Positions 2,508 through 2,640 of a stretch of 64,000 nucleotides of DNA are shown here, in pieces (position 1 is the first letter of the stretch; each line of letters begins with the position of its first letter). This DNA comes from Octopus vulgaris (Eukaryota), in the NCBI GenBank assembly GCA_951406725.2, contig OX597815.1, positions 177,134,001-177,198,000 on the forward strand, read 5' to 3'. The position numbers were made by a program, and so were the translations under genes. Below the pieces are notes generated by a model. It saw only the letters and a program-made list of their open reading frames with translations, was not told the DNA's origin and did not search any database.

Positions 2508-2640
2508 GCAGCGTGGAAGGTGTTTATAAGCCATTTAAGAAACACACAAAAACCGTTAGATTCACTTCAACATTTAAATTTAATTTGTCAAAATATTTCC
2601 GTCGCTTTGGGACCGCGACCTGTTCACTGACAAAACTCCG
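2508..2640 (-). mobile_element. Short PLE-terminal-like repeat with HHR-like fold (2584-2634), inserted in (TAT)n
   Basis: Homologous to both arms of 13490-13780; minus strand TTTGTCA-GTGAACA-G-GTCGC..GCGAC-GGAA-ATAT-TT-TGACAAA. Confidence 0.6.

What the first reader, a model, noticed from the sequence alone, without database searches (positions are those of the whole stretch)
2584..2634. Natural G3-C8 core-swap hammerhead family
Seen: 7-bp stem I, 5-bp stem II and palindromic stem III (AAATATTT) frame a core reading GUGAACA instead of CUGANGA, plus one extra G before stem II. The homolog at 13644-13686 keeps G3 and C8 (GUAAACA) and has intact GAAA, while this copy has GGAA. Established: positions 3 and 8 form a Watson-Crick pair in the active HHR fold and the C3G/G8C double change partly restores activity; an extra base after A9 occurs in the CChMVd viroid HHR. 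Inference: the family consensus is GUGAACA-G...GAAA, a compensatory variant that standard searches would miss.
Basis: partly seen in the sequence, partly recalled or inferred. Interest (0 to 1): 0.75.

Follow-up and report, generated by a model that had tools for sequence, protein, structure and literature searches.

The report
Swapped-core hammerhead in Penelope retrotransposons
This 51-base motif is one decayed copy of a hammerhead-type RNA carried by thousands of copies of a Penelope-type jumping gene, in which two paired core letters are swapped (G3-C8) while a sister family keeps the usual C3-G8; it likely still cuts itself weakly, which is untested.

Summary
The motif is real, on the minus strand. 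It is a minimal type I hammerhead in the terminal repeat (pLTR) of a Neptune/Nematis-type Penelope-like retroelement, about 1 kb behind the RT + GIY-YIG gene and about 90 nt before its start codon. The predicted family consensus holds: 4,993 exact GUGAACA-G-stem II-GAAA copies genome-wide. A much older related family also has G3-C8 while N7, loop II, stem III length and a stem I pair changed. A sister family (55% protein identity) and a metagenomic relative have C3-G8 at the same place, so the swap is a real compensated double change. The extra base and palindromic stem III are standard for Penelope hammerheads. The window copy (A13G) and the 13.6-kb copy (G5A, broken stem I) are probably dead. 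Cleavage is untested; the sister family thrives with A9C. Natural U3-A8 is published; I found no natural G3-C8 in the papers I could read, but the key 2017 paper was unavailable. Unchecked scan notes report G3-C8 motifs on other DNA. New variant of a known kind.

The parts
2505..2641 (-). 5'-truncated solo pLTR copy of a Penelope-like element (family A), ending at the short 3' end, inserted in an (AAT)n tract
   Evidence: 90% to the pLTR of an ORF-linked copy, L175
2628..2634 (-). hammerhead stem I, 5' arm
2621..2627 (-). core G3 U4 G5 A6 A7 C8 A9 (swapped 3-8 pair)
2620..2620 (-). extra G between A9 and G10.1
   Evidence: feature of PLE hammerheads in PMC4209133
2601..2619 (-). stem II (5 bp) with 9-nt loop
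2597..2600 (-). G12-A15.1, reading GGAA in this copy (A13G, minority: 9 of 93 copies); family GAAA
2592..2597 (-). palindromic A15.1-U16.1 (AAUAUU), stem III only as a dimer
2590..2591 (-). predicted cleavage site, between U17 (2591) and U1.1 (2590)
   Evidence: inferred from hammerhead numbering
2584..2590 (-). hammerhead stem I, 3' arm
2506..2534 (-). start codon (2534-2532) and first codons of the element's RT-endonuclease ORF
   Evidence: in L175 this frame runs on into the ORF and aligns with the N-terminus of the sister family's 1312-aa frame
13430..13641 (-). second family A insertion, inverted arm: long 3' end (with tail), hammerhead cut off 5' of A6
13640..13787 (+). second family A insertion, direct arm: decayed hammerhead 13644-13686 (G5A, 3-bp stem I), short 3' end

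Best explanation
The motif is the hammerhead of a Penelope-like retroelement's terminal repeat with the core 3-8 pair reversed to G3-C8, and in intact copies it likely self-cleaves slowly after U17 as a dimer or with help from the element's protein. Shown: position in the pLTR, behind the RT + GIY-YIG gene and before the start codon; family consensus; C3-G8 at the homologous place in sister elements. Inferred: G3-C8 keeps the tertiary pair that positions the ribose of nucleotide 8; two motifs in a tandem transcript pair their AAUAUU palindromes to make stem III; cutting would trim tandem or read-through transcripts. The swap most likely arose once in the ancestor of families A and C. The two copies in this window are predicted inactive.
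For: All other core letters (U4 G5 A6 A9 G12 A13 A14 A15.1 U16.1) are canonical in the column majority. In 8 of 8 ORF ends with over 1,100 nt of sequence behind them the motif follows at 967-1021 nt. Sister family B (55% identity) has C3 in 94 and G8 in 98 of 100 listed matches and G3 in none (4,512 matches in all), with stem II pair 10.4-11.4 A-U instead of G-C and stem I pair 2.3-1.3 C-G instead of U-A. Metagenomic relative L207 (41-42% identity) has CUGAAGA, an extra base and a palindromic stem III. Old family C has majority G3 (17 of 31) and C8 (22 of 31) with N7 = C, a 6-nt loop II, a 4-nt palindrome and G-C at stem I 2.5-1.5; 11 of 11 core letters equal those of family A against 97 of 138 downstream (rough P 0.02). 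C3G/G8C partly restores cleavage in the hammerhead of a lizard Penelope element, which is protein-assisted (PMC11167929).
Against: No cleavage data. Within family A the core decays at the same rate as the rest (32 of 974 against 354 of 10,465) and only 1 of 100 listed non-G3 copies has a Watson-Crick partner at 8; this is expected of dead copies and gives no support. The active dimer (-27.2 kcal/mol) is no better than two monomers (-26.6 to -29.4) or a dimer without stem III (-31.3). The palindrome extends to AAAAUAUUUU, which could tie up A13, A14 and U17. The most abundant family B subfamily has C at position 9 (24 of 30 loci), which suggests cleavage may be dispensable. Hammerhead mutants did not affect insertion in vitro and no RNA ends were found at the cut site in PMC11167929. 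The swap is a single event, and my trees did not resolve its direction. The 0.02 figure is probably too small because the decayed family C majority lowers the background identity.
Confidence: 0.58

Rival explanations
1. The motif descends from a hammerhead but no longer cuts to any useful extent; it is kept as a folded signal (protein binding, translation start or splicing of the pLTR), and the 3-8 pair is kept for shape only.
For: Young family B spread to thousands of copies with A9C, a stem I mismatch and a non-palindromic stem III. Another young family in this genome has U4C. Insertion 5' ends cluster at unit positions 1-7, not at the cut site, position 61. Dimer energy is unfavourable. PMC11167929: cleavage not needed for insertion in vitro.
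Against: All catalytic letters, not only paired ones, are unchanged between families A and C. Minimal PLE hammerheads with weak stem III do cleave at low level as dimers (PMC4209133).
Confidence: 0.36
2. The likeness to a hammerhead is chance inside a palindromic repeat (a MITE-like hairpin or a SINE), and the swap is not a compensated change.
For: Many copies form inverted pairs. Rfam reports no hammerhead.
Against: The inverted pairs, two alternative 3' ends and (TA)n targets match the described PLE insertion pattern (PMC8557442; PMC11167929). The unit is joined to an RT + GIY-YIG gene. Homologous elements carry a canonical hammerhead core at the same place. No tRNA head in 6 of 6 loci. 0 descriptor hits in 200 shuffles.
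Confidence: 0.03

Closest known systems
Minimal type I hammerheads of metazoan Penelope-like elements (Cervera and de la Pena 2014, PMC4209133; parts 1-2 of 4 read, one supplement file searched)
   Same: pLTR location; type I; one base between 9 and 10.1; G10.1-C11.1; short palindromic stem III; mostly solo and inverted copies; U17 occurs in their alignment
   Different: G3-C8 instead of C3-G8 (they report only U3-A8, in Schistosoma Cercyon elements); extra base is G where their consensus has H; stem I is longer (7 bp)
PAc (Poseidon of Anolis carolinensis) hammerhead (Frangieh et al. 2024, PMC11167929; parts 1-2 of 4 read)
   Same: hammerhead next to the ORF start; two 3' ends inside the first codons giving an optional tail; AT-rich targets; C3G/G8C double mutant partly active
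   Different: There the swap is an engineered rescue, here it is the natural family state; the tail is about 57 nt here; this element has a CX3CxxC linker that Poseidon lacks
Natural U3-A8 hammerheads (Perreault et al. 2011, PMC3088659; section 8 read)
   Same: natural covariation of the 3-8 pair
   Different: U3-A8 keeps pyrimidine-purine order (two transitions); G3-C8 reverses it (two transversions) and is not mentioned in that section
Non-LTR retrozymes (bioRxiv 10.64898/2026.07.22.740005; part 1 of 5 and passages read)
   Same: short hammerhead-bearing units related to PLE pLTRs
   Different: Retrozymes are tandem arrays without an ORF; these copies are dispersed truncated ends of an autonomous element, and no head-to-tail joint at the cut site was seen

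Membership tests
Hammerhead ribozyme, type I minimal | three-way layout: stem I, core, stem II, GAAA, stem III, UH | tested here: met
   stem III only through the palindrome
Hammerhead ribozyme, type I minimal | literal core C3 U4 G5 A6 N7 G8 A9 | tested here: not met
   G3 in 77 of 80 and C8 in 85 of 89 copies; hence filed as a variant, not as a canonical member
Hammerhead ribozyme, type I minimal | Watson-Crick complementarity of positions 3 and 8, with covariation | tested here: met
   G-C in families A and C, C-G in family B and L207; one event only; no covariation among dead copies
Hammerhead ribozyme, type I minimal | U4 G5 A6 A9, G12 A13 A14, A15.1-U16.1, H17 | tested here: met
   met by the family majority; not met by the window copy (A13G) or the 13.6-kb copy (G5A)
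Hammerhead ribozyme, type I minimal | score against Rfam hammerhead models | tested here: not met
   no hammerhead hit at E <= 10 for a G3-C8 copy nor for a C3-G8 copy of the same family
Hammerhead ribozyme, type I minimal | site-specific self-cleavage after H17 | not testable with these tools
   only contigs were available for RNA-like runs
EN+ Penelope-like element | single ORF with RT and C-terminal GIY-YIG endonuclease | tested here: met
   1025-aa open frame in L165 with DKSG, YVDD and GIY-YIG-like motifs read by eye; Pfam gave no hit, so the domain names rest on recalled motifs
EN+ Penelope-like element | pLTR overlapping the ORF start, inverted 5'-truncated partner copies, optional tail | tested here: met
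   (3' ends: 36 of 105 at 144-153, 55 of 105 at 202-208)
Neptune/Nematis-type PLE | CX2-5CxxC linker between RT and endonuclease; microsatellite targets | tested here: met
   CX3CxxC in L151 and L165; criterion from PMC8557442
Neptune/Nematis-type PLE | placement in an RT tree with named reference elements | not tested
   no named reference sequences were at hand
Non-LTR retrozyme | tandem units of a few hundred nt, no ORF, circular RNA | tested here: not met
   dispersed or inverted copies linked to an ORF; no head-to-tail joint at the cut site in 4 runs

The most novel reading that the evidence does not exclude
This lineage of Penelope-like elements has for a long time used an actively cleaving hammerhead with a fully reversed G3-C8 core pair, so far described only as a laboratory rescue mutant, possibly co-adapted with U17 to avoid a G3-C17 mispair; together with the A9C and U4C cores of two other young families in the same genome it shows that PLE hammerheads tolerate, perhaps through protein help, core states that CUGANGA searches exclude.
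Probability: 0.4. Interest if true: 0.68.

Novelty: new variant of a known kind. Interest (0 to 1): 0.52.

Why it matters
A natural purine-pyrimidine reversal of the 3-8 pair would complete the evolutionary evidence for this tertiary pair and widen the descriptors used to find hammerheads; some Penelope clades are reported to lack hammerheads on the basis of CUGANGA searches (PMC8557442). One genome here offers a ready series of homologous natural cores (canonical, G3-C8, A9C) attached to young elements with long open frames, which makes the open question of whether PLE hammerheads need to cleave directly testable.

Tried and rejected
Rfam on the window listed only microsatellite-driven miRNA matches in the 150 of 213 rows shown; on two copies, no hammerhead. 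tRNA-derived SINE: none in 6 loci. My first reading, a 208-nt non-autonomous unit with a fixed 5' end, fell when 623 copies proved to extend upstream. Apparent tandem arrays on contigs C1 and C2 were segmental duplications. An upstream extension in L064 was a local duplication. The RT next to L047 belongs to an unrelated family. Two family A copies with CUGAAGA (L111, L116) are about what two independent point changes would give among thousands of copies and were not counted as support. Pfam found no domain in three PLE proteins. Both RT trees had one out-of-frame row (L207, L165) and are not used for the direction of the swap. RNA-like runs hold the repeat, but as contigs they show no strand, ends or level, and may include DNA; the small share in two insect metatranscriptomes is no evidence of habitat. 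A splice donor for the 3' splice-site-like signal was not found, and no spliced copy among 21 upstream flanks. Paper searches: 'hammerhead'+'C3G'+'G8C' 2 papers, 'G3-C8' 1, 'G3 and C8' 1 unrelated, 'positions 3 and 8' 0, 'U3-A8' 1, octopus+Penelope+ribozyme 4 listed, 0, 5; in the passages read none reports natural G3-C8. Lunse, Weinberg and Breaker 2017 on PLE hammerhead variants could not be read, and one supplement file of PMC4209133 was not searched; either may bear on novelty.

Full report
Observation. The reverse complement of 2584-2634 parses as a type I hammerhead: 7-bp stem I, GUGAACA, one G, 5-bp stem II with a 9-nt loop, GGAA, AUAU, U16.1, U17. A descriptor fitted to it finds only this site in the window and none in 200 shuffles. 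The second site at 13644-13686 is the direct arm of an inverted pair (13430-13641 minus, 13640-13787 plus). It keeps G3, C8 and GAAA but has G5A and only 3 bp of stem I.

The family. The genome is 2.8 Gb in 227 contigs; from size, microsatellite load and recalled repeats it looks like an octopus, which no call confirms. A 19-mer of stem II matches 2,741 times and the core-to-stem III stretch with a free loop matches 4,993 times, control 0. In 105 aligned pieces from 60 loci, G3 is seen in 77 of 80, C8 in 85 of 89, G5 in 79 of 81, the extra G in 85 of 88 and A13 in 84 of 93. In the loci chosen only by stem II, G3 is 29 of 31 and C8 35 of 38. Eighteen runs from five coded organisms hold half or more of the sampled words; in the eight runs laid, no other letter at positions 3 or 8 reached the 3-5% listing threshold.

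What carries it. Copies occur alone or head-to-head with an inverted, 5'-truncated partner, often in (TA)n, and end at two places: 36 of 105 at unit positions 144-153 and 55 of 105 at 202-208. Three loci show 12-15-nt target duplications by eye. This is the pattern described for Penelope-like elements (PMC8557442 passages; PMC11167929). Loose ends in DNA runs pointed to a shared upstream stretch, present in 623 copies and shaped like a branch point and 3' splice site. Following it led to RT + GIY-YIG frames of up to 1025 aa. In 8 of 8 ORF ends with enough sequence behind them the hammerhead follows at 967-1021 nt. In L175 the repeat runs on into the ORF: the start codon lies inside the unit (window 2534) and both 3' ends fall in the first 30 codons, as in the lizard element PAc. 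A CX3CxxC linker marks it as Neptune/Nematis type (criterion). Pfam gave no hit, so domain names rest on motifs read by eye.

Is the swap compensatory? Among dead copies of family A there is no sign of selection: core mismatches 32 of 974, rest 354 of 10,465; of 158 non-G3 copies, the 100 listed include 16 with C3, all still C8, and one A3-U8. The evidence comes from comparing families. Family B (55% protein identity, 1312-aa frames) has the homologous motif with C3 in 94 and G8 in 98 of 100 listed matches of 4,512; its older copies read CUGAUGA with a perfect 5-bp stem I and C17 (L178). Stem II pair 10.4-11.4 and stem I pair 2.3-1.3 covary between A and B. A metagenomic relative at 41-42% identity has CUGAAGA, an extra base and a palindromic stem III behind its ORF. 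An old family C, homologous to A along the pLTR, has majority GUGACCA with a 6-nt loop II, a 4-nt palindrome and a G-C pair at 2.5-1.5. After dropping 7 of 38 rows that were family A or did not cover the core, G3 is 17 of 31 and C8 22 of 31; with all 38 rows, 19 and 24. All 11 core letters agree between A and C against 97 of 138 downstream; the rough chance is 0.02 and probably understated. So G3-C8 has persisted while neutral positions changed. It is one event; its direction rests on C3-G8 being the general state, since both of my trees had an out-of-frame row.

How it likely works. C3G/G8C partly restores cleavage lost in the single mutants, including in the PAc hammerhead, which cuts only with its protein (PMC11167929; PMC8495972 passage). 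Minimal PLE hammerheads cleave weakly as dimers (PMC4209133). I infer slow cleavage after U17 in tandem transcripts or with protein help (0.58). PMC3884650 notes, as data not shown, that G3-C8 works better with G17 than with C17; families A and C both have U17, which would avoid a G3-C17 pair, but U17 also occurs with canonical cores, so this is only a lead. Against activity: the active dimer is not favoured in energy; the palindrome can extend over A13, A14 and U17; young family B has C at position 9 in 24 of 30 loci; PAc did not need cleavage for insertion in vitro. A non-cutting structural role gets 0.36.

Known and new. The extra base, G10.1-C11.1 and palindromic stem III are described PLE features. 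Natural U3-A8 is published. Nine paper searches and the passages read gave G3-C8 only as an engineered mutant, but the 2017 paper on PLE hammerhead variants was not available. Rfam misses both a G3-C8 and a C3-G8 copy. Unchecked scan notes describe single G3-C8 motifs behind two other Penelope-type elements and in a phage array; none resembles this DNA. Verdict: new variant of a known kind, interest 0.52.

Noticed in passing
L082:733-2883 (ORF); L082:492-567 and 3082-3157 (motif): A very young, abundant Penelope-like family (150 listed matches at 99-100% protein identity, 2590-nt tandem units, CxCX5C linker as in the Hydra clade) whose pLTR has a hammerhead-like fold with U4C (CCGAAGA), an extra U before G12 and U17.
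   Followed up: partly
L167:1637 and 6225; L177-L206: Sister family B shows stepwise core decay: older copies CUGAUGA with C17 and a perfect stem I, the abundant young subfamily A9C, a stem I mismatch and often U17, yet it has intact 1312-aa frames and thousands of copies.
   Followed up: partly
L119-L148, about 22 nt upstream of the unit start: Branch-point-like and 3' splice-site-like signal ending 16 nt before stem I, after a long (TACA)n tract; an intron end next to helix I is reported for Drosophila Penelope. No donor site or spliced copy found.
   Followed up: partly
unit positions 1-7 (e.g. L005, L011, L025, L029, L057): Insertion 5' ends pile up here (65 of 105 pieces) and 7 of 21 flanks end in GAG rather than the element's CAG; these letters match the complement of the tail's 3' end, which suggests cDNA fold-back as the cause. 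Untested.
   Followed up: partly
window 7878-8069 (and 7550-8186): Perfect 96-bp inverted arms around a (TA)n tract, inside a longer inverted pair; the arm ends resemble Helitron-like repeats (recalled).
   Followed up: no
window 42364-43759: Long inverted repeat pair (97 nt at 100%, 163 nt at 93%), not family A.
   Followed up: no
window 47074-47355 (+), 9707-9868 (-), 15552-16208 (-): Remnants of other retroelements: two GIY-YIG-like fragments and a LINE-type RT fragment.
   Followed up: no
L193:1503, L115 (both copies): An old relative of family B with a canonical CUGAAGA core and a stem I 5' arm like family A's, but no clear stem I pairing in these decayed copies.
   Followed up: partly
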